Notes: generated by a model not told the origin, from the sequence alone. A stretch of DNA of 64,000 nt from Vicinamibacterales bacterium (GCA_050742535.1 JBOGIQ010000001.1:50-64049), one strand, 5' to 3'; shown: positions 7,657 to 61,577, numbered from the stretch's first letter. Program-made: numbers and translations.

Positions 7657-8624
7657 TGCGCGTCCTGATCCTGAGCGCGCGGAGCGGATGGCACACCGAC
7701 GAGTTGTGCCGCGCCCTCACCGCGCGCGGGCATCAACCACGCATTGCTCCCTACGAATCGCTGGTGGCGGAATTCGGGGAACGTTCGAGTCGTTCGGATC
7801 GTTCGAGTCGTTCGATGACGTTCGGCCGTTCGAACGCGCACGATTCGAACGATTCGAACGTTCTCGCGTTTGACGCCGTACTCCCCCGCATCATCCCGAA
7901 CGGCTCGCTCGAGCAGATCATCTACCGTGTGGACGCGCTGCACTGGATCGAGGACCAGGGCATTCCCGTCGTGAACTCCGCGCGGGCGATCGAGCGTTCG
8001 GTGGACAAGTTCTACACGACGGCGCTCCTGCAGCAGGCGAGCCTGCCGGTGCCCGAAACGGTGGTCTGCGAGCGGGCGGATGACGCCATGGCGGCCATCC
8101 GGCGCATGCTCGACGGCGGCAGCGAGGTGATCATCAAGCCGATCTTCGGTTCGATGGGCCATGGGCTGGTCCGCGTCGCCGATGTCGAACTGGCATGGCG
8201 CGTGGTCCGTCCGCTCGAGCAGATGCGATCGGTGTTTTATGTGCAGCGCGCCATCGACCATGACGGCCGCGACGTCCGTCTCTTCGTCGTCGGCGGGCGT
8301 GTAGTGGGTGCGATCGAACGGACCGCTCCGGCCGGCGACTGGCGCACGAACGTCGCGCGCGGCGGCTCGGCGCGTGCGATCGATCCGCCGCCGGCCTGGC
8401 AGGAGCACGCGCTCATGGCGACAGCGGCAGTCGGCGCCGACTACGCCGGCGTGGACCTGTTGCTCTCGCCGAGCGGCGAGATCTTCGTGCTGGAAGTCAA
8501 CGGGATTCCCGGCTGGCAGGGACTTCAGGCCGCGACCGGTGTGGATGTTGCCGCGGCGATCGTGGAGCATGTGGAAACGCGCGCCGCCGGCATCCGCCGG
8601 TTCCGCGAACAGGTGAACGCGTGA
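7656..8624 (+). CDS. RimK-type ATP-grasp ligase (MptN/MfnD-like glutamate ligase of the H4MPT/methanofuran pathways)
   Basis: The ATG overlaps the mch stop (TGATG). It carries ATP-grasp motifs (IPVVNSARAIERSVDKFYT, VIIKPIFGSMGHGLVRV, FVLEVNGIPGW). It contains an in-frame repeat insertion at 7780-7864. Confidence 0.8.
   Translation: MRVLILSARSGWHTDELCRALTARGHQPRIAPYESLVAEFGERSSRSDRSSRSMTFGRSNAHDSNDSNVLAFDAVLPRIIPNGSLEQIIYRVDALHWIEDQGIPVVNSARAIERSVDKFYTTALLQQASLPVPETVVCERADDAMAAIRRMLDGGSEVIIKPIFGSMGHGLVRVADVELAWRVVRPLEQMRSVFYVQRAIDHDGRDVRLFVVGGRVVGAIERTAPAGDWRTNVARGGSARAIDPPPAWQEHALMATAAVGADYAGVDLLLSPSGEIFVLEVNGIPGWQGLQAATGVDVAAAIVEHVETRAAGIRRFREQVNA
7780..7864. repeat. Hexamer tandem-repeat hairpin (CGTTCGA/G units and their complement) inside the ATP-grasp CDS
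   Basis: GAACGTTCGAGTCGTTCGGATCGTTCGAGTCGTTCGATGACGTTCGGCCGTTCGAACGCGCACGATTCGAACGATTCGAACGTTC. The outer ~24 nt of each side are complementary, allowing G-U pairs. It is translated as ERSSRSDRSSRSMTFGRSNAHDSNDSN. Confidence 0.8.
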
Positions 8625-9604
8625 CGGCCGTGGCGGGCGAGCCGCAGCACCACATCGGCGTCGCACACGCATCGTGGATCATTGCCGGCCGTGCGCATCT
8701 CGCGTGCGTGCTCGAGGTCACTGCGCCGAAGCCGGGAAACGTGTCGCCCGGCCGGCCGTTCGCAGACATGCGCTACGAGGATTTTCTCCTCAGCGCCGAG
8801 GCGATTGCGCGGCCGCTCGAAGGCGCCGGCCGGCGGCCGCTCGGTGAAACCATCCTGCGGGCGGTGGAGGCAACGGCGTCCCGGACTCGCGCCAACACCA
8901 ACCTTGGCATTGTCCTGCTGCTGGCGCCGTTGGCGCGAGCCGCCATCCTGCTGCTCGATTCGCCGCCGCCGCCGGAGCGCGACCGCCGGCTGCGCAATCT
9001 GCGCACGGCAGTGGCGGGAGTGCTCGCGGACACGACGATCGACGATGCGAGGAATGCATACCGCGCGATCCGTCTCGCCAATCCGGGTGGACTCGGCACC
9101 GCCGAGGAACAGGACGTGACGGCCGAGCCGACGGTCACGCTGCTCGAGGCGATGCGGCTGGCCGCCGACCGCGACGGCATCGCGCGTGAATACGCGTCGT
9201 CGTACCAGACAACGTTTGAACGAGGTGTGCCTGCGCTGCTGCAGGCCCGTGCGGACGGGTTGGCGATGAGCGACGCGATTGTCGATTCGTACCTGACCCT
9301 TCTGGCGGGTACGCCGGACACGCACGTCGCGCGCCGGGGCGGCGACACGCTTGCCCGCCGCGTGTCGCAGCTTGCGGCCGATGCGCTGGCGGCCGGCGGA
9401 GTCCGCTCCGACGAGGGCCGGCTGCGCATCGCGGCAATGGATGCCTCGCTGCGCGATCCGCGCAACCTGGCGAATCCTGGAACCGCAGCTGACCTGACGG
9501 CCGCGGCAATTTTTGCCGCGCTCATCGTCGGTGGCTGGACCATCGGGCCGATCGACAGCGCGCGTGCTGCGGCACCGTACGAGCAAGGTTCGGAGGCATC
9601 ATGA
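8621..9604 (+). CDS. Triphosphoribosyl-dephospho-CoA synthase family protein (CitG-like, H4MPT-cluster type)
   Basis: The GTG overlaps the upstream stop (GTGA). EVTAPKPGNVSPGRPFADMRYEDFLLSAEAI and TNLGIVLLLAPLA are CitG/MdcB-like motifs. Confidence 0.75.
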   Translation: MTAVAGEPQHHIGVAHASWIIAGRAHLACVLEVTAPKPGNVSPGRPFADMRYEDFLLSAEAIARPLEGAGRRPLGETILRAVEATASRTRANTNLGIVLLLAPLARAAILLLDSPPPPERDRRLRNLRTAVAGVLADTTIDDARNAYRAIRLANPGGLGTAEEQDVTAEPTVTLLEAMRLAADRDGIAREYASSYQTTFERGVPALLQARADGLAMSDAIVDSYLTLLAGTPDTHVARRGGDTLARRVSQLAADALAAGGVRSDEGRLRIAAMDASLRDPRNLANPGTAADLTAAAIFAALIVGGWTIGPIDSARAAAPYEQGSEAS

Positions 9605-10895: not shown

Positions 10896-10913
10896 CGGAG
10901 ATATTCTCCTACT

Positions 10914-12620
10914 GTGATTCTCGGCTGGGACATTGGCGGCGTGAACACGAAGGTGGCATGCCTTGGCGACACCGGCGCGCTGACCGTCCGCTCGCGCCCC
11001 TTCGAACTGCAGCGGGAGCCAGATGCGCTCGTCCGCGTACTGCGCGATCTGGCCGCACAGGTTGGCGCAGGATCCATCGTCGAGTCCGGCTTCAGCCGGA
11101 TGACCGTATTCACGTGCGCGGTGACGATGACCGCCGAGCTCTCGCAGATGTTTCGGACCAAGCGTGAAGGGGTGCATTTCGTGCTCGACGCCGTGTCCGC
11201 CGCTTTTCCCGACGCGACGACGCGGGTGTTCACAACGGACGGCCGCTTTCTGACGATTGACACCGCTCGTGTCGAGCCGTTGGCGGTCGCCGCGGCGAAC
11301 TGGGCGGCCACGGCACGCATGGTTGCGTCCCGGTACCGCGACGCGATGCTCGTGGATGTCGGGACGACCACGACGGACATCATCCCGATCGTGAATGGGG
11401 ATGTGGTCGCCGAGGGGAAGACAGATCCGGAGCGTCTGGCGTCCGGCGAGCTGGTATATTCCGGCGCGCTGCGCACGCCGGTTGAGGCGATCGTGCACGA
11501 GGTGAGCGATCGTGGCGAGACCTTCGGCGTGTCCGCTGAAGGATTCGCGCTGATTGGCGACGTGCACGTGTGGCTGGGCCGGCTGGCGGCGGAGGACTAC
11601 ACGGTTCCGACGCCGGACGGTCGCCCTGCGACGCGCGAATTCGCCGGAGAGCGGATCGCGCGCGTGATCTGCGGCGATCGCGAGCTGGTTGGCGACTCTG
11701 CGCGCACGCACATTGCACATGCGATTGCCGCACAACAGGTGGCGGCCATCGCGGCGGCAATCCGGCGCGTGCGTTCACGTCATCCGTCTCTTCGTACAGC
11801 GGTCGTCACCGGTCTCGGTCACTTTATTGCGAGTGCGGCCGCTCGTTCTGCGTCGCTGGACGTCGTGTCGCTCGCGGACGACATCGGCGAGGATGCGGCA
11901 CGCTATGCGCCGGCAGCAGCGGTGGCGCTGTTGTGCGCGGACAGTCAGATAAGAGCGAATAGTCCGATAGAAGATCGTGGGGCAAACCGTGTCAGGCTTG
12001 CCTACCCGGACCCGACAGGGTCCGCGCCACGATCCGCGTTTGTGATCAAAGTCGGTGGCGGTCTGCTCGAACACATCGACCATCTCGATCGCGTCGTTGC
12101 GGCCATCGCCGATGTCGGCCGGACGCTGCGAGTCGTGGTCGTCCCTGGCGGCGGACCGTTCGCGGACGCGGTGCGCCGTGTCGATCGACGTCTGGCGCTC
12201 GGTGACGAGGAAGCACACTGGATGGCGATCCTCGGAATGGATCAGTACGCGCACCTGCTGGCGGCGCGAATCGATTCCGGAACCGTGGTTGCCGGACGCG
12301 AACAGATCGCGGACGCGCATCGCAGAACGCAGATTCCGGTGCTGGCTCCATCGGCATGGCTCAAGGCCGCTGACCCGCTTCCACACAGCTGGGACGTGAC
12401 GAGCGACAGCATCGCAGCCTGGGTGGCCGGCGAACTTGGCGCCGCGCGCCTGCTGTTGATCAAACCGCCCGGCGCGCGGGGTCCGGACCTCGTCGACGCG
12501 CACTTCCAGAAGACACAGCCGGCCGGGTGCGTCTGCGACTGTCTGGACGCCGATGAGGCGATCGGTCTGCTCAGCCGCGCCGCAGGGCACGACCGAGCGC
12601 ACGCACTCGACTCTCGCTGA
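10914..12620 (+). CDS. Fusion of a hydantoinase-like H4MPT-linked C1-pathway protein (MfnF-like) with an amino-acid-kinase-family protein (MfnE-like)
   Basis: The GTG at 10914 gives VILGWDIGGVNTKVA..., with GGAGA upstream. The N-terminal ~350 aa are hydantoinase_A-like (DVGTTTTDIIPI). After a repeat-containing linker the same frame continues VIKVGGGLLEH...VVVVPGGGPFAD, which is amino acid kinase-like. There is no in-frame stop between the two parts. Confidence 0.7.
   Translation: MILGWDIGGVNTKVACLGDTGALTVRSRPFELQREPDALVRVLRDLAAQVGAGSIVESGFSRMTVFTCAVTMTAELSQMFRTKREGVHFVLDAVSAAFPDATTRVFTTDGRFLTIDTARVEPLAVAAANWAATARMVASRYRDAMLVDVGTTTTDIIPIVNGDVVAEGKTDPERLASGELVYSGALRTPVEAIVHEVSDRGETFGVSAEGFALIGDVHVWLGRLAAEDYTVPTPDGRPATREFAGERIARVICGDRELVGDSARTHIAHAIAAQQVAAIAAAIRRVRSRHPSLRTAVVTGLGHFIASAAARSASLDVVSLADDIGEDAARYAPAAAVALLCADSQIRANSPIEDRGANRVRLAYPDPTGSAPRSAFVIKVGGGLLEHIDHLDRVVAAIADVGRTLRVVVVPGGGPFADAVRRVDRRLALGDEEAHWMAILGMDQYAHLLAARIDSGTVVAGREQIADAHRRTQIPVLAPSAWLKAADPLPHSWDVTSDSIAAWVAGELGAARLLLIKPPGARGPDLVDAHFQKTQPAGCVCDCLDADEAIGLLSRAAGHDRAHALDSR
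11083..11102. repeat. REP-type hairpin, family E (GAGTCCGGC-TTYA-GCCGGAT)
   Basis: GAGTCCGGCTTCAGCCGGAT lies inside the CDS and is translated ESGFSRM. Confidence 0.8.
11973..12034. repeat. Composite hairpin element, family B (GATCGTGG ... two hairpins ... CCACGATC)
   Basis: GATCGTGG GGCAAACC-GTGTCA-GGCTTGCC TAC CCGGACCC-GACA-GGGTCCGCG CCACGATC. It lies in the linker of the fused CDS. Confidence 0.85.
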
Positions 12621-14476: not shown

Positions 14477-15904
14477 GTGACAGCCAACGGGGTCACACGC
14501 GTACTGTTCGTCACCGGCAAGCTGGCAGAGCCGGCACTGCGGCGTGTGCTCTCGGAGGCGGACCTGCCGTTCAGCGTGGATGTGGCGGTGATGCGCATTA
14601 CCGTTGCCGCGCTGATGACGACGGAGTGGATCGCCCGCTTTCTGGAGGTTCCGTCCGGCACCGACCTGGTCATGATTCCCGGCCTGTGCGAAGGCGACGC
14701 CGCGGCCGTCGCTGCCAGCACGGGCGTGCGCGTCGAGAAGGGGCCCAAAGACCTGCGCGAGATCCCGCAGTATTTCGGCCGCGCCGAAGCGGCGCGCGAC
14801 TACGGCGCGTGGGACATCGAGATCCTCGCGGAAATCAACAACGCCCCGCGGCTGACACCGGCGGCCATCCGCGCGGCAGCGGAGTACTTCCGTACGTCGG
14901 GCGCCGACGTGATCGACATCGGCTGCACGCCCGGGCTGCAATTCCCAAACCTCGGCGCCATCGTTCGCGACCTCGCGTCAGCCGGGATGCGTGTGAGCAT
15001 CGACACGTTCGACCCGCACGAAATCCGCACCGCGGTCGAGGCCGGCGCCGAGCTCGTCCTCAGCGTCAACGGCACCAATATCGATGTCGCCCGCGATCTG
15101 GCCGGGTCGCCGGCGCGTGTCGTTGTCGTTCCTGATCTCGGCGCGTCGCTCGACACGATGGATCGCAGCGTCGACAAGCTGGAGGCGTGGGGCGTGCCGT
15201 ATCTGCTCGATCCGATCCTCGAGCCGATCGGGTTCGGCTTCACGGCATCGATCGAGCGCTACGCCGGGACCCGCCGCCGCTACCCGGATGCCGACATGTT
15301 GATGGGGATTGGGAACCTCACGGAACTGACGGCGGCGGATTCGACCGGCGTGAACGCGATGCTCATCGCCGTCTGTCAGGAGCTCGGCATTCGGTCCGTC
15401 CTGACGACGGAGGTCATTCCGTGGGCCAGAGGAGCCGTGCGCGAAATAGGGATCGCGCGTCAGCTGATGCACTACGCCGTCACACGCAGGACGATCCCGA
15501 AGGGCGTGGACGATCGGCTGGTGACGATCAAGGACCCGTCGGTCCTCAGCTACAGCGAGGGCGAGCTGCGTGCCCTGCAGGCGCGCATCACCGACCCGAA
15601 CTTTCGCATCTTTGCCGACGCGGACGCGATTACGGTGTTCAACAACGAGCGGTTCGTGCGCGGCACGAACATCCAGGAAATCTTCAATCAACTTGGCGTG
15701 GACGAGCCGTCGCACGCCTTCTATCTGGGCAAGGAACTGGCGCGGGCGAGTCTGGCGGTCACGCTCGGAAAGACGTACCGTCAGGAAGGATCGCTGTCGT
15801 GGGGCTATCTGACGCCGCCCGACGATGCGAAGTCCGAGCACGTGACGCTGACGCAGAAACCGGCACGCCTGAAGGGGCGCCCTACGAACGCGAACCCGTC
15901 ATGA
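14477..15904 (+). CDS. Dihydropteroate-synthase-like protein (archaeal/H4MPT type)
   Basis: GTG at 14477. The N-terminal domain (VLFVTGKLAEPALRRVL) is followed by a pterin-binding-like barrel (GADVIDIGCTPG, VSIDTF, MGIGNLTELT). The C-terminal tail is encoded by a family C hairpin. Confidence 0.75.
   Translation: MTANGVTRVLFVTGKLAEPALRRVLSEADLPFSVDVAVMRITVAALMTTEWIARFLEVPSGTDLVMIPGLCEGDAAAVAASTGVRVEKGPKDLREIPQYFGRAEAARDYGAWDIEILAEINNAPRLTPAAIRAAAEYFRTSGADVIDIGCTPGLQFPNLGAIVRDLASAGMRVSIDTFDPHEIRTAVEAGAELVLSVNGTNIDVARDLAGSPARVVVVPDLGASLDTMDRSVDKLEAWGVPYLLDPILEPIGFGFTASIERYAGTRRRYPDADMLMGIGNLTELTAADSTGVNAMLIAVCQELGIRSVLTTEVIPWARGAVREIGIARQLMHYAVTRRTIPKGVDDRLVTIKDPSVLSYSEGELRALQARITDPNFRIFADADAITVFNNERFVRGTNIQEIFNQLGVDEPSHAFYLGKELARASLAVTLGKTYRQEGSLSWGYLTPPDDAKSEHVTLTQKPARLKGRPTNANPS
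15862..15886. repeat. REP-type hairpin, family C (GGCRCCCC-TGAA-GGGGYGCC plus CTACG), degenerate copy
   Basis: GGCACGCC TGAA GGGGCGCC CTACG, translated ARLKGRPTN. Confidence 0.7.
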
Positions 15905-16515
15905 GTGAGATGCAACGAGGCAGCGACGTCCGCACGTCCGAATACCCGATCGACACGCTGTTCCTGGATCGATGGTCGCCGCGCGCGATGTCCGGCGAAG
16001 CGCTCAGCGACGCCGAGCTGCTGACGTTGTTCGAGGCGGCGCATTGGGCTCCCTCATCCGGTAATTCGCAGCCGTGGCGGTTCCTCTATGCCCGCCGCGA
16101 CACGGAGCACTGGCCGCTGTTCTTCGATTTGCTGAACGAAGGCAACAAGACCTGGTGCCATCGCGCCGCCGCGCTGCTCGTGTTCATCTCGCGCACGACG
16201 AACGAGAAGTCGGGCCGCGCGCTCGTCACCCATTCGTATGACACCGGCGCCGCCTGGATGAGCCTTGCCCTGCAGGGGTGGATCAAGGGGCTGGTCGTGC
16301 ACGGGATGGCCGGGTTCGATTACGCCCGCGCGAAAGACGCGCTGCACGTGCCGGATGACTTCACGGTCGAGGCAATGGCTGCCATCGGCCGGCTCGGGCC
16401 GAAGGAGGATCTGCCGCCGCAGCATCTCTCGCGGGAATTCCCCGGTCAGCGCCGGCCGGTCGCCGAACTCGTGTTCGCGGGACCGTTTCGCCCGGACGGT
16501 GGAGTCCGGCTTTAG
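15901..16515 (+). CDS. Nitroreductase-family protein
   Basis: The ATGA overlaps the upstream gene. RWSPRAM...AAHWAPSSGNSQPWRFLY is the nitroreductase signature. Confidence 0.75.
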   Translation: MSEMQRGSDVRTSEYPIDTLFLDRWSPRAMSGEALSDAELLTLFEAAHWAPSSGNSQPWRFLYARRDTEHWPLFFDLLNEGNKTWCHRAAALLVFISRTTNEKSGRALVTHSYDTGAAWMSLALQGWIKGLVVHGMAGFDYARAKDALHVPDDFTVEAMAAIGRLGPKEDLPPQHLSREFPGQRRPVAELVFAGPFRPDGGVRL

Positions 16516-16521
16516 CCGGAT
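16502..16521. repeat. REP-type hairpin, family E
   Basis: GAGTCCGGCTTTAGCCGGAT. The TAG in its loop (16513-16515) is the nitroreductase stop codon. Confidence 0.85.
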
Positions 16522-18097: not shown

Positions 18098-18109
18098 TTG
18101 TACTTACAA

Positions 18110-29459: not shown

Positions 29460-29482
29460 GTTATTCGGTGTCCGTTTAGCGC

Positions 29483-54968: not shown

Positions 54969-56468
54969 ATGCCGACGCGAGCGCCGTCGGCGGGCGAGCA
55001 GTACCGCTTCCACTTCGACATGACGAAGTGCATCGGTTGCAAGTGCTGCGTGGTGGCGTGCAACGAGCAGAACGGAAACCCGGCGGCAATCAACTGGCGG
55101 CGTGTTGGCGAGATCGAAGGCGGATGGTTCCCGAATACCACGCGCTCATATCTGTCGATGGGATGCAACCACTGTGTCGAGCCGTCGTGTCTCGAGGGCT
55201 GCCCGGTGGATGCCTACAGCAAGGATCCGGTGACCGGCATCGTGCGCCACAGCGCGGATGCGTGCATCGGCTGTCAGTACTGCACCTGGAACTGCTCGTA
55301 TGGGGTGCCGCAATACAACGCCGATCGTGGCGTCGTCGGCAAGTGCGACATGTGCCACGGCCGCCTTTCGCTTGGCCAGGCTCCGGCCTGTGTCAGCGCG
55401 TGTCCTGAGGGCGCCATCGCCATCGAGATCGTCAACATCGACGAGTGGCGGACCGCTGTGGTGGCAACGGACGTCCCCGAGCCCAGTCGAGGAATCACGT
55501 TCGCCGGCCTGCCCATCGCTGACGGCAGTCTGTCCACCACGCGAATCACCATGCCGGCGGACCTCGCGCCCAACACCAAGCCGCGCGATATCACCCACGT
55601 CAGGCCCGAACATCCGCACTGGCCGCTGGTGGTGATGACCGTGCTGACGCAGCTGTCGGTGGGCGCGTTCACGACGATCTGGCTGCTCCAGCTCGTTGGC
55701 GCCTCGTCGGGGCTCGGCGTCGCGGCGATGGCTTCTCTGCTCGTGGGCGCGCTCGCGTTGAACGCCTCGACGCTCCATCTCGGTCGTCCCGTGCATGCCT
55801 ACCGTGCGCTGCGGATGTGGCGGCGATCGTGGCTCAGCCGCGAAGTGCTTCTCTTCACGAGTTTCTCCCTCGTGGCCGGACTCTACGCAGCGCTGCTCTG
55901 GTTCGGTGGTGGCACCCCTGAAGGGGTGCCCTACGTGACGGGTGGCATGAGCGGGCGGCTGACAACAGCAGTGGGAGCGCTCACCGTTGCTCTCGGCATT
56001 GCGGGCGTCACCGCAAGCGCATGCATCTATCGCGTTCCATCACGTCCGGCCTGGAATACCCGCTACACGCTGCTCCAGTTCAACCTGACGGGTGCGCTGC
56101 TCGGCCCGCTGTTCGCGATGGCTGTTGGTGTTGGTGATCACCAGTGGCTCGCGATTGCAGCGGCGACGATGGCCGGCGCCCAGTTCGTGCTCCTGGCCGT
56201 CCGCTTCCTGCGTTGCATTGCATCGGACAGCCTCGAGCTGAAAGGAACGGCCCGGCTGCTCTCTACGGTATTTGCGAAGCACCTGGTCGCGCGAGGTGTC
56301 CTGCTGGCCGCCGGCGCCATTGTCCTACCCCTGATCGTCGCTCCGCCCGCGATCGCGTTGGCGTTGGCGGTGGGCGCGGAAATCCTCGGCCGCTATCTGT
56401 TCTTCGTCAGCGTCGTTCCGAAGCACATGGCGACGCCGTACGTCCCGGTGGAAGGCGAGGCCGCATGA
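54969..56468 (+). CDS. Fusion of a 4Fe-4S ferredoxin (DmsB-like) with a DmsC-like membrane anchor
   Basis: The cluster motifs are CIGCKCCVVAC, CNHCVEPSCLEGCP, CIGCQYCTWNC and CDMCHGR...C..ACP. About 8 hydrophobic segments follow. The start is uncertain (ATG 54969, or upstream GTG 54807). Confidence 0.7.
   Translation: MPTRAPSAGEQYRFHFDMTKCIGCKCCVVACNEQNGNPAAINWRRVGEIEGGWFPNTTRSYLSMGCNHCVEPSCLEGCPVDAYSKDPVTGIVRHSADACIGCQYCTWNCSYGVPQYNADRGVVGKCDMCHGRLSLGQAPACVSACPEGAIAIEIVNIDEWRTAVVATDVPEPSRGITFAGLPIADGSLSTTRITMPADLAPNTKPRDITHVRPEHPHWPLVVMTVLTQLSVGAFTTIWLLQLVGASSGLGVAAMASLLVGALALNASTLHLGRPVHAYRALRMWRRSWLSREVLLFTSFSLVAGLYAALLWFGGGTPEGVPYVTGGMSGRLTTAVGALTVALGIAGVTASACIYRVPSRPAWNTRYTLLQFNLTGALLGPLFAMAVGVGDHQWLAIAAATMAGAQFVLLAVRFLRCIASDSLELKGTARLLSTVFAKHLVARGVLLAAGAIVLPLIVAPPAIALALAVGAEILGRYLFFVSVVPKHMATPYVPVEGEAA
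55911..55935. repeat. REP-type hairpin, family C
   Basis: GGCACCCC TGAA GGGGTGCC CTACG with a perfect 8-bp stem, translated GTPEGVPYV. Confidence 0.9.
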
Positions 56469-58750
56469 GGAGTCGTAGTGTCCGCCTTCAGGCGGACGTG
56501 AAGCGCCTTATCGGCCTCGACACTCGCGCGGACGAGTACGCCTATGCCGTCGATCCGGACGCGGGGTACGTCTCGGCGCAGAAGGTCCCCGACCGGTGGG
56601 TGAAGACGACATGTGGGTACTGCTCCGTCGGCTGCGGCATGTTCATCGGCGTCAAGGACGGTCGTGCCGTGGCCGTGCGCGGCAACCCCGATCATCCGGT
56701 GAGCCGCGGTCTCCTGTGCCCGAAGGGGCTGTCCGAGCACCACACGATTGACGCCACCAACCGGGCCCGATACCCCCTTCTGAAGAAGAACGGCGGGATG
56801 GCGCGCGTGTCGTGGCCGGACGCGCTCGACACGATGGCCGCCAGGTTCCGGGACGTGCAGGCTCGTTACGGAAGCCAGTCGGTTGGCGTCATCAGCACGG
56901 GACAGCTCGTCACCGAGGAGTTCTACACGCTTGGAAAGCTGGTGCAGCTCGGCATCGGGACGCCGAATTACGACGGCAACACCACGCTGTGCATGTCCAC
57001 AGCGGTGGCCGGCTACAAGCGATCGTTCGGCAGCGACGGGCCGCCGGCCGCGTACGAAGACTTCGAGGTTGCCGATCTCATCCTGCTGATTGGCGCGAAC
57101 ATCGCCGACAACCACCCGATTCTGTGCCGTCGTCTGCAGTCGAATCCCGACAAGACGTTGATCGTGGTCGATCCACGCGTCACCAAGACGGCCATGCTCG
57201 CGGATCTGCATCTGCCGATCCGTCCGCGCGCCGATCTCGCGCTCATCAATGCCCTGATTCACGTCGTCATCGACAACGGCCTCATCGACCGCGAGTACGT
57301 CGAACGCCACACGACGGGTTTCGAGGAGCTGCGAGAGTCGGTGCGCGACTACACGCCACAGCACGCGGCCACCATCACCGGCCTCGCCCCCGAGGTGATT
57401 TATCGAACGGCCTGGCTCTACGCCAGCGCCGGGCGAGCGCTCATCGCCTGGACGATGGGCGTGAATCACAGCACCAAGGGCACCGAGACCGTCAACGCCA
57501 TCAACAACCTGGCGCTCATCACGGGCAACATCGGACGCGCCGGGGCGGCGCCGTTCTCCATCACCGGCCAGTGCAACGCGATGGGAACACGGGAGGCCGG
57601 TTTCGCCTCGAGCCTGCCCGGCTACCGCAAGTTCGAGAGCGAGACGGACCGTGCCGAGCTTGCAGCGATCTGGAACGTGCCGGTGGAGCGGATTCCTTCC
57701 GCCCGCGGCCTCGCCTATCCGGACATCATCGAGGCCGCCCTTGAAAAGCGGATCCGCGCGCTGTGGATCATTGCCACCAATCCGATCGTTTCTTTCCCGA
57801 ATCTTGGCGTTCTCCAGCAGGCGCTCGAAGGGCTCGAGTTCCTCGTCGTCCAGGACGGTTTCCATCCGACGCCGACGTCGGCGTACGCGGATCTCGTGCT
57901 GCCTGCCGCCATCTGGGGTGAGAAGGACGGGACCTACACCAACTCCGAGCGCCGGGTCAGCAAGGCCAATAAGGCCGTGGATCCGCCGGGTGAGGCGAAG
58001 GCCGACTTCGAGATTTTCCTCGGGCTTGCGGATGCGCTCGGGGTTCGCGAGGAGCTGTTCCCTGGATGGACGACGGCAGGCGACGCGTTCGAGGAATGGA
58101 AGCGCGTGTCGGCCGGCCGTCTCTGCGATTACTCCGGGATGACCTACGACGCGATCGAGGAACACGGTGGCATCCAGTGGCCGTTTCCCGACGGGGCCGC
58201 GGATCCGACGGAGTGCCGCCGCCTCTACGCCGACGGAATCTTTCAGACCGACGACGGCAGGGCGCGGTTGCTGCCGGTGGCGTGGGAACCGTTTCCCGAA
58301 CAGCCAACACCGGCGTTTCCGTTCGTGCTCAACACCGGCCGGACCGTCGAGCACTGGCACACGCGCACGAAAACCGCGAACGTGCCGATCCTCGAGCACC
58401 TCTCGCCGAACGCCTGGCTCGAGATGAACCCGCGCGACGCCAGAGGCCTCGGCCTCAAGGCGCACGATCGCGTTGACCTCGTCTCGCAGCGGGGCAGGGT
58501 GCGGAACGTCGAACTCCGGGTGACCGAGACGATCGCTCCAGGCCAGGTCTTCGTGCCGTTCCACTACGCCGAAGCCAATGCCAATCAGGTGACGCAGAGC
58601 GCGTTCGATCCGATTTCGCGCGAGCCGAACTACAAGCAGGCCGCCGTACGGGTGGAAAGAGCAGATGGGATCAGGGATCAGGGATCAGGGATCCGTTCTT
58701 CCCGATCCCCGATCCCTGATCCCCGATCCCCGCATGGAGCCGCCCGATGA
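56465..58750 (+). CDS. nasA: Assimilatory-type nitrate reductase catalytic subunit (molybdopterin oxidoreductase)
   Basis: KTTCGYCSVGCGM...GLLCPKG is an N-terminal 4Fe-4S motif, and TGQCNAMGTRE is also present. No twin-arginine motif. The ATGA overlaps the upstream gene (GTG 56498 is the alternative start). The C-terminal ~30 aa are encoded by a repeat hairpin. Confidence 0.75.
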   Translation: MRSRSVRLQADVKRLIGLDTRADEYAYAVDPDAGYVSAQKVPDRWVKTTCGYCSVGCGMFIGVKDGRAVAVRGNPDHPVSRGLLCPKGLSEHHTIDATNRARYPLLKKNGGMARVSWPDALDTMAARFRDVQARYGSQSVGVISTGQLVTEEFYTLGKLVQLGIGTPNYDGNTTLCMSTAVAGYKRSFGSDGPPAAYEDFEVADLILLIGANIADNHPILCRRLQSNPDKTLIVVDPRVTKTAMLADLHLPIRPRADLALINALIHVVIDNGLIDREYVERHTTGFEELRESVRDYTPQHAATITGLAPEVIYRTAWLYASAGRALIAWTMGVNHSTKGTETVNAINNLALITGNIGRAGAAPFSITGQCNAMGTREAGFASSLPGYRKFESETDRAELAAIWNVPVERIPSARGLAYPDIIEAALEKRIRALWIIATNPIVSFPNLGVLQQALEGLEFLVVQDGFHPTPTSAYADLVLPAAIWGEKDGTYTNSERRVSKANKAVDPPGEAKADFEIFLGLADALGVREELFPGWTTAGDAFEEWKRVSAGRLCDYSGMTYDAIEEHGGIQWPFPDGAADPTECRRLYADGIFQTDDGRARLLPVAWEPFPEQPTPAFPFVLNTGRTVEHWHTRTKTANVPILEHLSPNAWLEMNPRDARGLGLKAHDRVDLVSQRGRVRNVELRVTETIAPGQVFVPFHYAEANANQVTQSAFDPISREPNYKQAAVRVERADGIRDQGSGIRSSRSPIPDPRSPHGAAR
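56474..56497. repeat. REP-type hairpin, family A
   Basis: CGTAGT GTCCGCC TTCA GGCGGAC, between the ATG at 56465 and the GTG at 56498, translated RSVRLQAD. Confidence 0.9.
58667..58730. repeat. Heptamer repeat hairpin (GGGATCA x4 paired with YGATCCC x4)
   Basis: 58667-58693 pairs with 58704-58730, giving 27 bp with two A-C mismatches and a 10-nt loop. It lies inside the nasA reading frame, 17 nt upstream of the nirB ATG. Confidence 0.9.
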
Positions 58751-61182
58751 CGCGACTCGTCGTCGTCGGCAACGGCATGGCGGGCATGGCGTGCCTCGAG
58801 CAGATCCTCAAGTACGCGCCGCGTTTCGCGATCACCGTGTTCGGTGACGAGACGCACGTGAACTACAACCGGATCATGCTGTCGTCCGTCCTGGCCGGCG
58901 AAAAGGCCGCGGACGACATCGTCCTGAATCCGATCGAGTGGTATCAGCGGCACAACATCGATCTGCGTGTCGGCGTGCGCATCGTGGGCGTCGACGCGGA
59001 CGCGAAGACCGTGACCGGCAGCGACGGCAGCGTCACGCCCTACGACGCCTTGCTGCTCGCCACGGGCAGCTCCGCCTGGCTGCCGCCAATCGACGGCGTC
59101 GAGAAGGACGGCGTGTTCGTCTTCCGCACGCTCGACGACACCCGCGCGCTGCTGGAGCGGGCGGGGCCAGGCGTCAAGGCCGTGGTGATCGGCGGTGGCC
59201 TGCTTGGCCTCGAAGCCGCGCGCGGGCTGCAGGTGCAGGGCTGCGACGTCACCGTCGTCCACTTGATGTCGACGTTGATGGAGCGTCAGCTCGATCCCGA
59301 CGGCGGCTACTACCTGCTCGGCAAGATGGAAGAGCTGGGGATCCGCGTGCTGCTCGGGCGGACGACGACGGCGATTCTTGGCAACGGGCATGTCGAGGGC
59401 GTCGCGCTGTCCGACGACACCTGCATGGACGCCGACCTGGTCGTGGTGGCCGCCGGCATCCGGCCCAATATCGACCTCGCACTCAACGGTGGAATCGCGG
59501 CGAATCGCGGAATCCTCGTCAACGACTACATGGAGACGTCGCACCCCGACATCTACGCGGTTGGCGAGTGCGTCGAGCATCGCGGCGTCTGCTACGGGCT
59601 GGTGGCTCCGCTCTACGAGCAGGGGAAAGTGCTCGCGGCGACGATCACCGGCAATCGCGGACCTGCGTACGAAGGCACGGTGCAGGCGGCGAAGCTCAAG
59701 ATCATGGGCGTCGACGTGTTCTCCGCCGGCGATTGGAGCGAGCAGAACGCGGAGCCGGTCCGGTTCGAGGATCGTGCATTAGGCATCTACAAGAAGCTGA
59801 CGGTGCGCGACGGCAGGCTGGTCGGCGCCATCCTGGTCGGCGATACGTCCGACAGCCATCGCTACATGGAGTGGCTGCGCGGCAGCGCGGACATCAGCGC
59901 GCAGCGCAAGCATCTGCTGTTTCCGCCGCCGTCTCCGGACGCAGGCCTCGACATCGCGCAGATGGCGGACGGCGAGACCGTTTGCGGCTGCCTCGGCGTC
60001 ACGAAGGGCACGATCATCGCCGCGATTCACGAGCAGGGCGTCAACTCGCTCTCGCAGCTCAAGGAGTGCACGCGCGCAAGCACGAGCTGCGGCAGCTGCA
60101 CGAGTCTCTGCCAGGGTCTGCTGCGTGCCGTGGCGCCGGAATTCGAGGACGAGCGGAAGACGGTCATCTGCGCCTGCGTGCCGTTTGCCGAAGACCAGCT
60201 GCGCGACATCCTCCGCAGCCAGAAGCTGCGTGCCGTCCAGGACGTGCTCGAGATCTACGGCAACGGCGTTGGCTGCGAAGTCTGCAAGCCGGCGCTCAGC
60301 TACATGCTCGACATGCTCTGGTGCGGCGACCACGAGGAAGACCGGTCGGCGCGGTTCATCAACGACCGTGTCCACGCCAACATCCAGAAGGACGGGACCT
60401 TCTCCGTCATCCCACGCATCCATGGCGGCGTGACGTCGGCGGATCAATTACGGCGCATCGCTGACGTCGCGGACAAATACAAGGTGCCGATGGTGAAGAT
60501 CACCGGCAGCCAGCGCATCGATCTGCTCGGCATCAAGAAGGCCGACCTCCCGAAGGTCTGGGCCGACCTCGGCATGCCGTCCGGCCAGGCGTACACCAAG
60601 GGCGTCCGCATGGTGAAGACGTGCGTGGGCACCGATTTCTGCCGATTCGGCACGCAGGATTCGACGTCCGCCGGCGTCGAGATGGAGCGGCGGTTCGAGC
60701 ACCTGTTCACGCCGCACAAAGTGAAGATGGCCGCCGTCGGCTGCCCGCGGAACTGCGCGGAAGCGACGGTCAAGGACATCGGTCTCGTTGGCGTCGAAGG
60801 CGGATGGCAGGTTGTCGTCGGCGGCGCGGCAGGGAAGTCCGTGCGCAAGGCCGATCTGCTGACGACCGTGGAGACGACGGCACAGGCGCTGGAAGCGTCC
60901 GAGCTGTTCTTCCAGTACTACCGGGAGAACGCGAATTACCTGGAGCGCACCTACGACTTCGTCGAGCGGCTGGGCATCGAGAAGGTCCGCAAGGAGACCG
61001 TCTATGCCCCCGACGCCGTGCGCGACGCGCTGCTCGATCGGCTGCGCAAGTCCAAGGCACGGTCGCGCGACGCGTGGCAGGAAGGGATCGACCCGAAGAC
61101 GCCGGCACAGTTCATCCCCCTAATTCCACTCGATCCCGTGGAGTCCGGCTTTAGCCGGATCATGCCGGAGACGACCGCATGA
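58747..61182 (+). CDS. nirB: NAD(P)H-dependent nitrite reductase large subunit
   Basis: MTRLVVVGNGMAGMA marks the FAD/NAD domains. A BFD-like 2Fe-2S region and a sirohaem/4Fe-4S domain (CVGTDFCRFG...CPRNCAE) follow. Confidence 0.9.
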   Translation: MTRLVVVGNGMAGMACLEQILKYAPRFAITVFGDETHVNYNRIMLSSVLAGEKAADDIVLNPIEWYQRHNIDLRVGVRIVGVDADAKTVTGSDGSVTPYDALLLATGSSAWLPPIDGVEKDGVFVFRTLDDTRALLERAGPGVKAVVIGGGLLGLEAARGLQVQGCDVTVVHLMSTLMERQLDPDGGYYLLGKMEELGIRVLLGRTTTAILGNGHVEGVALSDDTCMDADLVVVAAGIRPNIDLALNGGIAANRGILVNDYMETSHPDIYAVGECVEHRGVCYGLVAPLYEQGKVLAATITGNRGPAYEGTVQAAKLKIMGVDVFSAGDWSEQNAEPVRFEDRALGIYKKLTVRDGRLVGAILVGDTSDSHRYMEWLRGSADISAQRKHLLFPPPSPDAGLDIAQMADGETVCGCLGVTKGTIIAAIHEQGVNSLSQLKECTRASTSCGSCTSLCQGLLRAVAPEFEDERKTVICACVPFAEDQLRDILRSQKLRAVQDVLEIYGNGVGCEVCKPALSYMLDMLWCGDHEEDRSARFINDRVHANIQKDGTFSVIPRIHGGVTSADQLRRIADVADKYKVPMVKITGSQRIDLLGIKKADLPKVWADLGMPSGQAYTKGVRMVKTCVGTDFCRFGTQDSTSAGVEMERRFEHLFTPHKVKMAAVGCPRNCAEATVKDIGLVGVEGGWQVVVGGAAGKSVRKADLLTTVETTAQALEASELFFQYYRENANYLERTYDFVERLGIEKVRKETVYAPDAVRDALLDRLRKSKARSRDAWQEGIDPKTPAQFIPLIPLDPVESGFSRIMPETTA
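61141..61160. repeat. REP-type hairpin, family E
   Basis: GAGTCCGGCTTTAGCCGGAT, translated ESGFSRI in the NirB tail. Confidence 0.85.
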
Positions 61183-61577
61183 CCTTTCAGTGGATTCGGG
61201 TGACGCCGACCGGAAACATTCCGCCTCGCGAGGGACGGGCGGTGCTGATCGGCGATCGCGAGATCGCGCTCTTCAATCTTGGAGACGAGTTCCTCGCCAC
61301 CGACAACCAGTGTCCGCACAAGGGCGGTCCACTGTGCGACGGCATCGTCACCGGCACGTCCGTCGTCTGCCCGCTGCACGCGTGGAAGGTCAATCTCGCG
61401 ACGGGCGAGGTCGAGCGGCCCGCGCATGGCAAGGAGCACTGCGTGACGACGTATCCGACGCGCATCGAGGATGGCGTGGTGCTGATCGGATTGCCGGCGG
61501 CACGCGAAGGCACCCCTGAAGGGGCGCCCTACGTAGGGCACCCTTTCAAGGGTGCCGATCCAGAGGCCGCGGCATGA
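61179..61577 (+). CDS. nirD: Nitrite reductase small subunit (Rieske-like)
   Basis: CPHKGGPLCDGIV...VVCPLHAWKV. The ATGA overlaps nirB. The last ~25 residues are encoded by two family C hairpins. Confidence 0.85.
   Translation: MTFQWIRVTPTGNIPPREGRAVLIGDREIALFNLGDEFLATDNQCPHKGGPLCDGIVTGTSVVCPLHAWKVNLATGEVERPAHGKEHCVTTYPTRIEDGVVLIGLPAAREGTPEGAPYVGHPFKGADPEAAA
61509..61556. repeat. Two family C hairpins in inverted orientation sharing a CTACGTAG centre
   Basis: GGCACCCC TGAA GGGGCGCC CTACGTAG GGCACCC TTTCAA GGGTGCC. Confidence 0.85.

What the first reader, a model, noticed from the sequence alone, without database searches (positions are those of the whole stretch)
7780..61556. Hairpin repeats are translated in frame inside many genes (about 17 events in 64 kb)
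**Copies that lie within called reading frames without interrupting them:**

| Coordinates | Host gene | Encoded peptide or position |
|---|---|---|
| 7780-7864 | ATP-grasp ligase | ERSSRSDRSSRSMTFGRSNAHDSNDSN |
| 11083-11102 | MfnF-like domain | ESGFSRM |
| 11973-12034 | fused CDS | inter-domain linker |
| 15862-15886 | DHPS-like | C-terminal tail |
| 16502-16521 | nitroreductase | C-terminal tail |
| 17072-17134 | PabB | exactly 63 bp |
| 24581-24635 | VWA protein | N-terminus |
| 25633-25666 | MoeA | internal |
| 27929-27946 | MoeA-PBP | internal |
| 28760-28799 | MobA | N-terminus |
| 34251-34345 | AOR | internal |
| 49933-49992 | NrtC-like | C-terminal region |
| 55911-55935 | FeS/DmsC-like | internal |
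| 56474-56497 | NasA | N-terminus |
| 58667-58730 | NasA | C-terminal tail |
| 61141-61160 | NirB | C-terminal tail |
| 61509-61556 | NirD | C-terminal tail |

**Recurrent peptides that result:** VRLQAD or PPKGGHYD, ESGFSRI/M, GEPDKARPT or GRALPGSP, and TPEG(A/V)PYV.

**The element supplies the host stop codon in three cases:**
- TAG at 16513-16515, in the hairpin loop.
- TAG at 29392-29394, in the hairpin flank.
- TAG at 37377-37379, in the hairpin flank.

**Position.** Many copies sit exactly at ATGA or GTGA stop-start overlaps. They lengthen a terminus but preserve the coupled junction.

**Interpretation.** In-frame insertion of palindromic elements into genes is established for Rickettsia palindromic elements. 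I am not aware of an equivalent description for this lineage. The density here is unusually high.
Basis: partly seen in the sequence, partly recalled or inferred. Interest (0 to 1): 0.75.

Follow-up and report, generated by a model that had tools for sequence, protein, structure and literature searches.

The report
Palindromic repeats translated inside many genes
A soil acidobacterium (order Vicinamibacterales) carries short mobile-looking hairpin repeats that sit in frame inside about 17 genes in 64 kb and are almost certainly translated as harmless passenger peptides; this kind of event is already known from other bacteria, but the density here is unusually high.

Summary
All 17 listed segments are palindromic repeats lying inside open reading frames. 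Most are REP-like: a CGT(A/G/C)G head followed by a 6-9 bp GC stem with a 4-nt loop, often in inverted pairs. Two are palindromes whose arms are tandem heptamers, and two belong to a 'CCCTTCGAC..GCTCAGGGCAGGCC' family.

I compared seven related genomes, counting loci from one genome once, plus hundreds of homologous proteins. Every segment is an insertion relative to some relative, and the same sites are empty or hold different repeats in other relatives.

At the 14 sites bounded by coding sequence, all 31 distinct length differences between genomes are multiples of 3. At intergenic repeat sites only 4 of 20 are (Fisher p = 7e-10). So the segments lie in translated sequence under frame selection, while the peptides themselves are not conserved.

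Insertions sit just after start codons, just upstream of the ribosome-binding site and ATGA junction, in a domain linker, or in loops.

Intragenic GTAG/CGTC REPs, and REP heads that supply TAG stops, were described by Di Nocera et al. 2013. This is therefore a new member of a known kind. What stands out is the density (about 1 per 4 kb), the reuse of the same sites, and the lineage. One 'supplied stop' (37377) is ancestral.

The parts
7780..7864 (+). Palindrome whose arms are degenerate tandem heptamers (CGTTCGA-like). It lies inside the pre-ATP-grasp (Rimk_N) domain of an ATP-grasp ligase and encodes ERSSRSDRSSRSMTFGRSNAHDSNDSN.
   Evidence: It folds as a long hairpin, -57 kcal/mol. The Rimk_N match spans 112 residues against a 94-position profile. 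Relative L018 is exactly 60 nt shorter and in frame.
11083..11102 (+). REP (CGTCG head, TCCGGC stem) inside the Hydantoinase_A/AA_kinase fusion gene, just before the Hydantoinase_A domain. It encodes ESGFSRM.
   Evidence: The upstream flank is conserved coding sequence in 4 genomes. L004 and L018 are empty (-27 and -24 nt). L003 carries a nested 33-nt extra repeat.
11973..12034 (+). REP doublet (GATCGTGG ... CCACGATC) forming the linker between the Hydantoinase_A and amino-acid-kinase domains of one 568-aa ORF.
   Evidence: All four genomes keep one open frame through different repeat sets. Length differences are +12, -48 and +24.
15862..15886 (+). REP (GGCACGCC..GGGGCGCC, CTACG tail) in the C-terminal tail of the DUF6513/pterin-binding protein, 15 nt before the ATGA overlap.
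   Evidence: L004 and L034 are empty. L018 and L035 carry other REPs whose loop TGA is the stop. L003 has a 1-nt deletion, so its tail is read in another frame and ends at the second TGA of ATGAGTGA.
16502..16521 (+). REP whose loop TAG (16513-16515) ends the nitroreductase gene.
   Evidence: This is a 30-nt insertion relative to L003, which has its own TGA. L004 reads a REP fully in another frame. In L018 and L035 the gene stops at a REP GTAG head; L018 carries two REPs there.
17072..17134 (+). 63-nt REP doublet inside PabB, between the N-terminal and chorismate-binding domains. It encodes DRGADVGTSASGEPDKARPTI.
   Evidence: Five genomes carry different REP families or copy numbers at this spot, all in frame (-21, +27, -6, -6). 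It lies in a 66-aa segment that corresponds to 26 aa in E. coli PabB 1k0e.
24581..24635 (+). REP doublet inserted after codon 4 of a VWA-domain protein, in the n-region of its signal-peptide-like N-terminus.
   Evidence: Homologues start MIAAIRLA...; the window and one 91%-identical homologue have 26 extra residues there. There is no in-frame ATG, GTG or TTG between the repeat and the hydrophobic segment.
25633..25666 (+). 24-nt insert of the 'CCCTTCGAC..GCTCAGGGCAGGCC' family inside the MoeA N-terminal domain (PFDVAQGR).
   Evidence: Present in the window and L033. Absent (-24 nt) in L034 and L035.
27929..27946 (+). REP (CGTGGCG head, TCCGGC stem) in a beta-hairpin turn of MoeA domain IV of the MoeA-PBP fusion. 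It encodes GVRLQPD.
   Evidence: Length differences are -9, -18 and -42 nt in relatives. It is the only internal length-variable site in 49 homologues. Many of the 120 homologues carry peptides from several REP families there. The solved MoeA 1uz5 has a short turn there; most of the query segment aligns to gaps.
28760..28799 (+). 36-nt insert (same family as 25633) directly after the GTG start of MobA (GTGA overlap with the upstream stop).
   Evidence: Three relatives, including the 93%-identical one, read GTG-AAA-CTC-GCG-GGA-ATC (MKLAGIVLCGG). The window has 12 extra codons and no alternative start before the GIVLCGG nucleotide-binding motif.
34251..34345 (-). Three REPs (two as a 39-nt tandem duplication, one inverted, forming a head-to-head pair) inside the aldehyde:ferredoxin oxidoreductase gene. 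They encode PPKGGHYDGVRSVRLQADRNDDGRSVRLQAD.
   Evidence: L034 is empty (-108 nt), L033 has one REP (-78), and L035 has two REPs of another variant (-30). The insert is 38 aa where 1aor has 8 aa, just after the CxxCxxxC cluster motif.
49933..49992 (-). REP doublet in the C-terminal region of an ABC-transporter ATPase, about 40-100 nt before its TTGA stop/start overlap. It encodes GRALPGSPRGRDHVRATI.
   Evidence: L030 has a different doublet (+18). L031 and L032 have unrelated sequence (+30, -24). All are in frame.
55911..55935 (+). REP (GGCACCCC..GGGGTGCC, CTACG tail) within the DmsC-like membrane domain of an FeS/DmsC-like fusion protein. It encodes GTPEGVPYV.
   Evidence: L032 lacks it (-45 nt) and L031 is -12 nt.
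56474..56497 (+). REP (CGTAGTG head) inserted after the second codon of NasA, whose ATG overlaps the upstream TGA. It encodes RSRSVRLQAD.
   Evidence: L032 is empty and reads ATGACGCTGAAG (MTLK...). L030 has the REP and no alternative start after it. L031 has the REP plus 48 more nt. 21 of 112 homologues have long N-terminal leads.
58667..58730 (+). Palindrome with (GGGATCA)n / (TGATCCC)n heptamer arms in the NasA C-terminal tail, 17 nt before the nirB ATG.
   Evidence: This is a 72-nt insertion absent from L031 and L032, and all genomes keep the ATGA overlap. 47 of 118 NasA homologues have long tails, many with palindrome-derived peptide patterns, at this point.
61141..61160 (+). REP in the NirB C-terminal tail, 19 nt before the nirD ATG. 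It encodes ESGFSRI.
   Evidence: L032 is empty in the nucleotide alignment; anchor-to-anchor it is 15 nt shorter. L030 and L031 hold variant REPs (+9, +3), including a G:C to C:G stem swap.
61509..61556 (+). Head-to-head REP pair (..CTAC|GTAG..) in the NirD C-terminal tail, 18 nt before the next ATG. It encodes GTPEGAPYVGHPFKGA.
   Evidence: Absent from the 93%-identical relative L030 (NirD 113 vs 132 aa). L030 keeps only 'ACGTAGG' at that point.
29390..29460 (+). Nested cluster of REP hairpins after MobA. The TAG of the first GTAG head (29392-29394) is the MobA stop.
   Evidence: In L034 the MobA stop is the TAA in another REP's loop. In L035 a REP is read through.
37377..37405 (+). REP inserted immediately 3' of a pre-existing G-TAG stop of the NuoF-like gene. 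It is intergenic.
   Evidence: L033 reads CAGTAGCCATG with no hairpin. The TAG is conserved in all four genomes. The insert is 29 nt, not a multiple of 3.
20205..20288 (+). REP (20242-20267) inserted at the DUF447/GHMP-kinase GTGA junction, flanked by a 23-nt direct duplication of that junction (20205-20227 and 20266-20288).
   Evidence: One search shows the sequence. Relatives have a single junction (-59 nt). The first copy keeps the stop; the second keeps the GTG start and the sequence upstream of it.

Best explanation
**What it is.** These are REP/REPIN-type palindromic repeats in a Vicinamibacterales (Acidobacteriota) genome. They have GTAG, GTGG or CGTC-like heads followed by short GC hairpins, and occur singly or as inverted pairs. 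At least two other palindrome families are also present.

**How it works.**
- The repeats are gained, lost, duplicated and replaced on a short evolutionary timescale.
- The operons in this window are tightly packed, with several stop/start overlaps (ATGA, GTGA, TTGA), so little intergenic DNA is available to accept an insertion.
- The copies that survive are those that add a whole number of stop-free codons at a position the protein tolerates. Such positions are:
  - just after the start codon;
  - between the last folded domain and the ribosome-binding site and start of the next gene;
  - an inter-domain linker;
  - loops or variable segments.
- Ribosomes then read straight through them. The products are non-conserved passenger peptides such as VRLQAD, PPKGGHYD, ESGFSR and TPEGxPYV.
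- In the remaining frames the repeat's own GTAG head or its TGA/TAG/TAA loop ends the gene.

**Shown versus inferred.**
- Shown: insertion status, recurrent reuse of sites, frame preservation, and lack of peptide conservation.
- Inferred: actual translation, neutrality, and mobilisation in trans by a RAYT-like tyrosine transposase.
For: 1. **Repeat families are far above chance**, and several copies have REP architecture with GTAG heads.

2. **Filled and empty sites alternate among relatives.**
   - The 93%-identical genome lacks the repeats at 16502, 20242, 28760 and 61509, lacks two of the three at 34251, and lacks the hairpin at 37377.
   - That genome has extra sequence at 11083 and 61141.

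3. **Frame is preserved.**
   - 31 of 31 distinct inter-genome length differences at the 14 sites bounded by coding sequence are multiples of 3.
   - Only 4 of 20 are at intergenic repeat sites (Fisher p = 7e-10).

4. **N-terminal copies cannot be avoided by a later start.**
   - No in-frame start lies between the insert and conserved sequence at 28760 or 24581, nor at 56474 in L030.
   - Empty-site relatives start at the ATG or GTG of the overlap.

5. **The peptides are not conserved.**
   - The same site holds different REP families, frames or stops in different genomes: 15862, 16502, 17072, 27929.
   - A 1-nt deletion re-frames the 15862 tail with no apparent consequence.

6. **Inserts fall in loops or variable segments of solved homologues** (1aor, 1k0e, 1uz5).

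7. **Independent assemblies agree**.

8. **The kind is published.** Intragenic GTAG/CGTC REPs and TAG-donating heads are described in PMC3733652. In-frame repeat fusions are reviewed in PMC3184786.
Against: - No direct evidence of translation exists: there is no proteomics or ribosome profiling for this uncultured organism.
- No RAYT gene was found among the window ORFs scanned, and the rest of the genome could not be searched. The mobilisation mechanism is therefore assumed.
- Many heads are GTGG or GTCG rather than canonical GTAG.
- Repeated occupation of the same few sites by different families could mean site preference, or selection for a hairpin, rather than a pure tolerance filter.
- The heptamer-arm palindromes differ in sequence from site to site, so a single master element cannot account for them.
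- Density is measured on one flagged 64-kb window and may not represent the genome.
Confidence: 0.85

Rival explanations
1. **Annotation artefact.** The hairpins would really be intergenic. They would only appear intragenic because stop codons are rare in 65% GC DNA and gene callers chose starts too far upstream.
For: - In the window NasA has an in-frame GTG (56498) right after the hairpin.
- Di Nocera et al. warn that many N-terminal REPs are mis-annotated.
- At the 16502 and 15862 sites some relatives do stop before or inside the REP, leaving the rest untranslated.
Against: - Seven events are internal to recognised domains or lie between two domains of one ORF.
- C-terminal cases have no earlier in-frame stop.
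- Length differences are multiples of 3 in 31 of 31 cases, against 4 of 20 at true intergenic sites.
- No alternative start exists at 28760, 24581 or the L030 copy of 56474.
Confidence: 0.04
2. **Selected RNA or DNA hairpins.** The hairpins would be kept at operon junctions for a function, with coding merely tolerated. Possible functions are to enforce or tune translational coupling by occluding the start region or the ribosome-binding site until an upstream ribosome unwinds them, to protect mRNA segments from exonucleases, or to act as gyrase or recombination sites.
For: - Eight hairpins end 6-19 nt upstream of the next start codon: 15886/15901, 16521/16535, 18100/18110, 20265/20284, 37405/37411, 58730/58747, 61160/61179, 61556/61574. 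Of these, 18100/18110 is estimated only from the sequence print, and 37405/37411 uses the part boundary assigned.
- Several others begin a few codons after a start (24581, 28760, 56474).
- The same junctions are re-occupied by different families in many lineages.
- At 61141, w and L031 differ by a compensatory G:C to C:G stem change.
- REPs are reported to stabilise mRNA, according to the literature summarised in PMC3733652.
- From my own memory of Liang et al. 2015, not retrieved here: REPs within about 15 nt of a stop can stall ribosomes.
Against: - Empty sites are common even in close relatives with the same operon structure, so no junction needs a hairpin.
- Internal-loop insertions (AOR, PabB, MoeA-PBP, DmsC) have no junction to regulate.
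- The position pattern is what a tolerance filter alone predicts.
- Stem covariation is equally expected if the hairpin is needed for mobility.
- L030's 61141 copy has a broken stem.
Confidence: 0.15
3. **Ancestral protein sequence.** The segments would be ancestral or convergently evolved low-complexity linkers, and the DNA palindromy would be incidental.
For: They lie in linkers, loops and tails, where low-complexity sequence is common. Some, such as the 11973 linker and the 17072 PabB insert, are occupied in every relative examined.
Against: - The same 16-24-nt DNA cores recur in unrelated genes, in both orientations, in different frames, and in intergenic DNA.
- Sites are present or absent between 93%-identical genomes.
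- Peptides at orthologous sites are unrelated.
Confidence: 0.01

Closest known systems
GTAG- and CGTC-tagged REP superfamilies with intragenic copies (Di Nocera, De Gregorio, Rocco 2013, BMC Genomics 14:522; PMC3733652)
   Same: - Short GC-rich stem-loops with an unpaired GTAG or CGTC-type tag, occurring as singles, head-to-head dimers and clusters.
- Mostly located next to gene 3' ends.
- GTAG heads donate TAG stops.
- A fraction lie wholly inside ORFs, encoding 7-30 residues, at N-termini, C-termini and internal positions.
   Different: - Lineage: the paper lists no REP family for Vicinamibacteria. Its only Acidobacteria entries are transposases flanked by terminal inverted repeats.
- Many heads here are GTGG or GTCG.
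- Density: 17 sites in 64 kb here. The richest species in that paper, Opitutus terrae, has about 70 listed insertions for a whole genome.
- The strong link to overlapping stop/start junctions and the reuse of the same sites by different families were not described there.
Rickettsia palindromic elements (RPE; Ogata et al. 2000, Science 290:347, cited in PMC3733652 and PMC3184786)
   Same: Palindromic repeats inserted in frame into functional protein genes. They are interpreted as selfish DNA that is tolerated in the host proteins.
   Different: RPE-1 elements are about 105-146 bp, far longer than the 18-40-nt units here. They occur in a reduced, AT-rich intracellular alphaproteobacterium. No sequence relationship was looked for or seen.
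REPIN/RAYT system (Bertels & Rainey 2011; Nunvar et al. 2010, cited in PMC3184786)
   Same: Inverted REP pairs that can fold into a larger hairpin (34299-34336, 61509-61556, 17072-17134). Copies are near-identical and dispersed.
   Different: No RAYT gene could be examined here. REPINs are described as extragenic (my own knowledge), whereas most of the pairs here are translated.
Mycobacterial interspersed repetitive units (MIRU; Supply et al. 1997; from my own knowledge, not retrieved here)
   Same: Repeats that sit between genes of an operon and carry short ORFs whose start and stop overlap those of the flanking genes, so that translational coupling is kept.
   Different: MIRUs are 40-100 bp direct tandem repeats, not hairpins. 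They form separate mini-ORFs rather than extending the flanking proteins.

Membership tests
GTAG/CGTC-tagged REP superfamily | Short (about 20-40 bp) GC-rich palindromic stem-loop | tested here: met
   Perfect 6-10 bp stems, mostly with 4-nt loops, are seen at over 25 positions.
GTAG/CGTC-tagged REP superfamily | Unpaired GTAG or CGTC tetranucleotide at one end | tested here: inconclusive
   A canonical CGTAG head occurs at 20242, 29390, 32503, 34322, 56474 and 61533, and as CTACG at 402, 822, 15882, 34269, 34308, 55931 and 61529. Other copies have CGTGG (16498, 27923, 61137 and the GATCGTGG family) or CGTCG (11078). The feature is met for about half the copies; the rest carry variant tags.
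GTAG/CGTC-tagged REP superfamily | Multi-copy and dispersed in the genome | tested here: met
   Within 64 kb there are 13 and 5 sites, against 0.03 expected for each. Related copies occur in all relatives' loci. A whole-genome count was not possible.
GTAG/CGTC-tagged REP superfamily | Frequent head-to-head dimers | tested here: met
   Head-to-head pairs are at 34299-34336 and 61509-61556. The GATCGTGG family forms pairs with heads outward (11973, 17072, 49933).
GTAG/CGTC-tagged REP superfamily | Association of GTAG REPs with a RAYT (Y1 transposase) gene | not testable with these tools
   No Y1 transposase domain was seen in the 30 window ORFs scanned.
Rickettsia palindromic elements (RPE) | In-frame insertion into protein-coding genes | tested here: met
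Rickettsia palindromic elements (RPE) | Element of about 105-146 bp belonging to the Rickettsia RPE sequence families | tested here: not met
   Units here are 18-40 nt, and doublets are 48-63 nt. The RPE size comes from PMC3184786. The resemblance is functional only; these are not members.
MIRU-type operon-junction repeats | Direct tandem repeats forming their own mini-ORF between two genes | tested here: not met
   The elements are hairpins that extend the flanking ORF itself. No separate mini-ORF is formed.

The most novel reading that the evidence does not exclude
In this lineage the hairpins at overlapping stop/start junctions would not be mere passengers. Placed just after start codons or just upstream of the next gene's ribosome-binding site, they would make the downstream gene's translation depend on a ribosome arriving from the upstream gene, or they would set segment-specific mRNA stability. 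REP turnover would then be a fast-evolving way of tuning expression ratios inside operons, paid for by junk peptides on the proteins. Separately, the palindromes built from locus-specific tandem heptamers may be generated locally by an undescribed mechanism rather than copied from a master element.
Probability: 0.12. Interest if true: 0.65.

Novelty: new member of a known kind. Interest (0 to 1): 0.4.

Why it matters
- **Scale.** Parasitic or semi-parasitic hairpin repeats can load a free-living soil bacterium's proteins with passenger peptides at a rate of roughly one gene in four in this window.
- **Annotation and protein-family work.** Variable termini and loops across Vicinamibacterales proteins are often repeat-derived. 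Examples are 47 of 118 NasA C-terminal tails and the MoeA-PBP domain IV loop, where many homologues carry REP peptides. These segments should be masked in alignments, structure prediction and start-codon calling.
- **A natural tolerance map.** The filled and empty site series show which positions in AOR, PabB, MoeA, NasA and NirBD accept insertions.
- **A test system.** The same series could be used to ask whether REP hairpins modulate translational coupling.

Tried and rejected
- A generic scan for 'tagged hairpins' (stem of at least 6, any GT[AGC]G nearby) was too permissive: 50 hits against about 22 in simulated sequence. I used family-specific patterns instead.
- One pattern for the GGCGAGCC family was mis-specified and found almost nothing.
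- The AlphaFold model of MoeA-PBP, built from 49 close homologues, was poor (mean pLDDT 56). It only weakly supports a loop position, so no fold search was run. Sequence alignment to solved MoeA was used instead.
- Rfam and tRNA scans found nothing.
- No GTAG target was seen in the empty sites examined at 16502, 34251 and 56474, although 37377 and 61509 fit a 'GTAG as insertion target' idea.
- I at first read a TAG in L018's 11973 linker as a stop separating two genes. The in-frame translation shows it is out of frame, and the ORF is fused in all four genomes.
- A literature search for the REP/trans-translation paper did not retrieve it, so that point is marked as memory only.
- L003's copy of the 7780 palindrome lies at a contig end and was not used.

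Full report
**Source and setting**

The window is 65% GC. It matches a Vicinamibacterales (Acidobacteriota) metagenome-assembled genome. One window protein is 100% identical to a protein on a 70,066-nt NCBI contig. Two other assemblies reproduce window positions 1-20131 and 7782-14238 at 99.98% identity without gaps.

The window encodes three gene groups, mostly as tightly packed operons with stop/start overlaps:
- a tetrahydromethanopterin-type cofactor cluster;
- a molybdenum-cofactor / aldehyde oxidoreductase / formate-dehydrogenase-like region;
- a nitrate-assimilation cluster.

Yes. Repeat finding and a hairpin scan show several families.
- **REP-like units.** Each has a CGT(A/G/C)G head followed by a perfect 6-9 bp GC stem and a 4-nt loop. 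The stems are GTCCGCC, TCCGGC, GGCACCC, GCTTCCGGC and, with a GATCGTGG head, GGCGAGCC or CGCGGAC. They occur singly, as head-to-head pairs (34299-34336, 61509-61556) or as pairs with heads outward (11973, 17072, 24581, 49933).
- **Long palindromes** whose arms are degenerate tandem heptamers (7780, 58667; also intergenic at 10100 and 18014).
- **A 'CCCTTCGAC..GCTCAGGGCAGGCC' family** with two local copies.

The two commonest cores occur at 13 and 5 sites, against 0.03 expected for each. All 17 listed coordinates fall inside ORFs with the stated domains. The quoted peptides are reproduced.

**Are they insertions, and are they in translated sequence?**

I fetched orthologous DNA from relatives of graded distance:
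- a genome about 93% identical (L003, L030 and L033, all GCA_035711805.1);
- six more loci from other genomes at about 76-82% identity (L004, L018, L031/L034, L032, L035).

I also collected 120 close homologues each for NasA, MoeA-PBP and the VWA protein. Site-by-site nucleotide alignments and anchor-to-anchor length tables give a consistent picture.

Every event is an insertion relative to at least one relative. The state of a site changes freely between genomes:
- **Nitroreductase 3' end (16502).** The site is empty with its own TGA in the 93% relative. In the window a REP's loop TAG is the stop. In L004 a REP is read through in another frame. In L018 two REPs follow a stop that is the GTAG head.
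- **AOR site (34251).** It holds 0, 1, 2 or 3 REPs in four genomes.
- **NirD (61509).** The protein is 113 aa in the 93% relative and 132 aa here.
- **MobA (28760).** The window has 12 extra codons directly after the GTG start, compared with three relatives.

*The key statistic.* Fourteen sites are bounded on both sides by coding sequence, either of one gene or of two genes with an overlapping stop/start. At these sites all 31 distinct non-zero length differences between genomes are multiples of 3, as are all 36 genome-by-site comparisons. At intergenic repeat-bearing sites analysed the same way, only 4 of 20 are. Fisher's exact test gives p = 7e-10.

The two exceptions explain themselves:
- At 15862 the next gene begins ATGAGTGA. 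This gives a TGA in both alternative frames, so the tail can be, and is, read in different frames. A 1-nt deletion in the 93% relative changes the whole tail peptide.
- At 16502 a short spacer follows.

*N-terminal cases.* Relatives with empty sites start at the ATG or GTG of the overlap. In the filled genomes there is no in-frame start between the insert and conserved sequence. This holds for:
- MobA, before the GIVLCGG motif;
- VWA, before the hydrophobic segment (homologues begin MIAAIRLA...);
- NasA in L030.

Only the window's own NasA has a possible alternative GTG.

The 'mis-annotated start/stop' explanation therefore fails for nearly all events. The 'ancestral protein sequence' explanation fails for all.

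**Where do they sit?**
- **Three sit one to four codons after a start** that overlaps the upstream stop: 24581, 28760, 56474.
- **Six sit in C-terminal tails or C-terminal regions.** Five of them (15862, 16502, 58667, 61141, 61509) end 14-19 nt before the next start, just upstream of where a ribosome-binding site should be. The sixth (49933) is about 40 nt away.
- **One fills a domain linker** of a fusion protein (11973).
- **Seven are internal:** 7780, 11083, 17072, 25633, 27929, 34251, 55911.

Alignment to solved structures places three of the internal inserts:
- The AOR insert (38 residues) falls where Pyrococcus AOR has 8, just after the cluster-binding CxxCxxxC.
- The PabB insert lies in a 66-residue segment that corresponds to 26 residues in E. 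coli PabB.
- The MoeA-PBP insert lies in a beta-hairpin turn of domain IV, where the solved MoeA 1uz5 has only a short turn.

A low-confidence AlphaFold model agrees on strand-coil-strand for MoeA-PBP (mean pLDDT 56, so this is weak support).

In MoeA-PBP this turn is the only internal length-variable position among 49 homologues. Many of the 120 homologues carry peptides from several different REP families there (GVRLQPD, SVRLQAD, GFRLQPEE, VGHPFRGA, RKGAPYED). In NasA, 47 of 118 homologues have long C-terminal tails, many with palindrome-derived peptide patterns, and 21 of 112 have extended N-termini.

**Stop codons**
- TAG 16513-16515 (loop) and TAG 29392-29394 (GTAG head) are supplied by the element.
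- TAG 37377-37379 is conserved in all four genomes, including one with no hairpin. There the hairpin lies immediately 3' of a pre-existing G-TAG.
- Relatives also use loop TGA and TAA codons as stops.

**Mechanism**

The best-supported account is a mobile or otherwise rapidly turning-over REP population, filtered by selection.

*Evidence of turnover.* Between the window and the 93% relative there are at least six window-specific gains or relative-specific losses, and at least two changes the other way, within about 50 kb. Dispersed copies are near-identical: CGTAGTGTCCGCCTTCAGGCGGAC is identical at 20242, 32503 and 56474. Growth by a 39-nt tandem duplication is seen at 34251.

*The filter.* Operons here leave almost no non-coding DNA. 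Insertions therefore persist only where the protein tolerates extra residues, where the length is a multiple of 3, and where the frame is stop-free. My reading of the GTCCGCC unit is that four of its six frames are open. Frames 1 and 2 of the forward orientation give (S)VRLQAD and VVSxFxR, both of which are observed. Frame 3 begins with TAG, and it is observed as a terminator.

*What remains inferred.* Translation itself, neutrality, and mobilisation by a RAYT-type transposase are all inferred. No such gene was seen in the 30 window ORFs scanned, and the rest of the genome could not be searched.

*The rival that remains open.* The junction hairpins may be selected at the RNA level, to control translational coupling or mRNA stability. 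Their tight spacing before starts and the repeated re-occupation of the same junctions are compatible with this. A tolerance filter predicts the same pattern, however. Close relatives with empty junctions show that no hairpin is required.

**Comparison with what is known**

- Di Nocera et al. 2013 (PMC3733652) defined GTAG- and CGTC-tagged REP superfamilies. They reported that GTAG termini often supply TAG stops. They also reported that REPs lie wholly within ORFs of known function in several species, with Opitutus terrae the richest at about 70 listed insertions. More than half of those are dimers or groups encoding 20-30 residues, and many sit at N- or C-termini.
- Delihas 2011 (PMC3184786) reviews repeats fused in frame, both internally and at 3' ends.
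- The Rickettsia RPE case is the classic analogue.

The finding is therefore not a new kind of thing.

Several points do appear new, as far as the searched literature shows:
- the lineage;
- the local density, 17 sites in 64 kb, an order of magnitude above the per-genome figures in that paper if the window is representative;
- the clear association with overlapping stop/start junctions;
- the reuse of identical sites by different families across a whole order.

**Verdict**
- Observation: confirmed.
- Interpretation: supported, with corrections.
- Novelty: new member of a known kind.
- Interest: moderate.

Noticed in passing
window 20205-20288: A REP sits at the DUF447/GHMP-kinase GTGA junction and is flanked by a 23-nt direct duplication of that junction (CCCGCGGTGGTGAAATCGTGACC, twice). 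The first copy keeps the upstream stop. The second keeps the GTG start and the sequence upstream of it. Relatives have a single overlapping junction. This is an unusually long duplication for a target-site duplication, and a different way of accommodating a REP.
   Followed up: partly
window 7780-7864, 10100-10155, 18014-18100, 58667-58730; L031 around 10001-10060: These palindromes have arms made of 3-5 degenerate tandem heptamers, and the heptamer differs at each locus (CGTTCGA, TAGGAGG, TGGAAAA, GGGATCA, CAACTCC). The one at 18014-18100 is AT-rich and separates PabB from PabA, where relatives have a plain ATGA overlap. Their origin is unexplained. Peptide patterns in NasA homologues (NSQLPTP..LGVGSW; GIRD..IPDPRS) suggest that some of them form families.
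   Followed up: partly
window 23196-23232, 62841-62893; L034 about 12585-12660: Plain, non-palindromic tandem heptamer arrays lie in short intergenic spacers: (CTGAAGA)5, (TTTTGCA)7, and (CGACTAC)n with about 11 units in a relative. In the window the first array appears to contain the TGA stop of the MFS transporter gene.
   Followed up: no
window 45866-45994, 48021-48217, 48690-49055, 63672-63756: Arrays of a 23-nt unit (..TCGCACCGACC plus a small GCGA/TCGC hairpin; period 23 or 46) occur in alternating orientation. They bracket a three-gene block and a 23S_rRNA_IVP (PF05635) gene at 48225-48662. Similar arrays occur in relative L004.
   Followed up: no
window 23235-25188: A 1,954-nt stretch is missing from the 93%-identical relative L003/L033. 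It covers most of the 23240-24565 gene and the 5' two-thirds of the VWA gene. L033 keeps only the last 99 codons of the VWA gene, so this looks like a deletion in the relative.
   Followed up: partly
window 40284-40340 and 41203-41259: A 57-nt inverted repeat (82% complementary). One arm lies just downstream of a DUF3738 gene; the other lies inside that gene's 5' coding region. The surrounding 40-44 kb region has lower GC (about 0.61-0.62) and holds two DUF3738 paralogues.
   Followed up: no
window 61509-61556 vs L030 about 12900-12915; window 37377: The empty NirD site in the close relative retains 'ACGTAGG', which is the exact centre of the head-to-head pair in the window. At 37377 the hairpin lies immediately 3' of a pre-existing GTAG. 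Both hint that GTAG could be a target or a footprint, but the empty sites examined at 16502, 34251 and 56474 lack it.
   Followed up: partly
window 229-865: A 577-nt intergenic region contains 138-nt direct repeats (229-366 and 470-607, 88% identical) and two 100%-identical 45-nt segments (401-445 and 821-865), each carrying a GTCCGCC REP.
   Followed up: no
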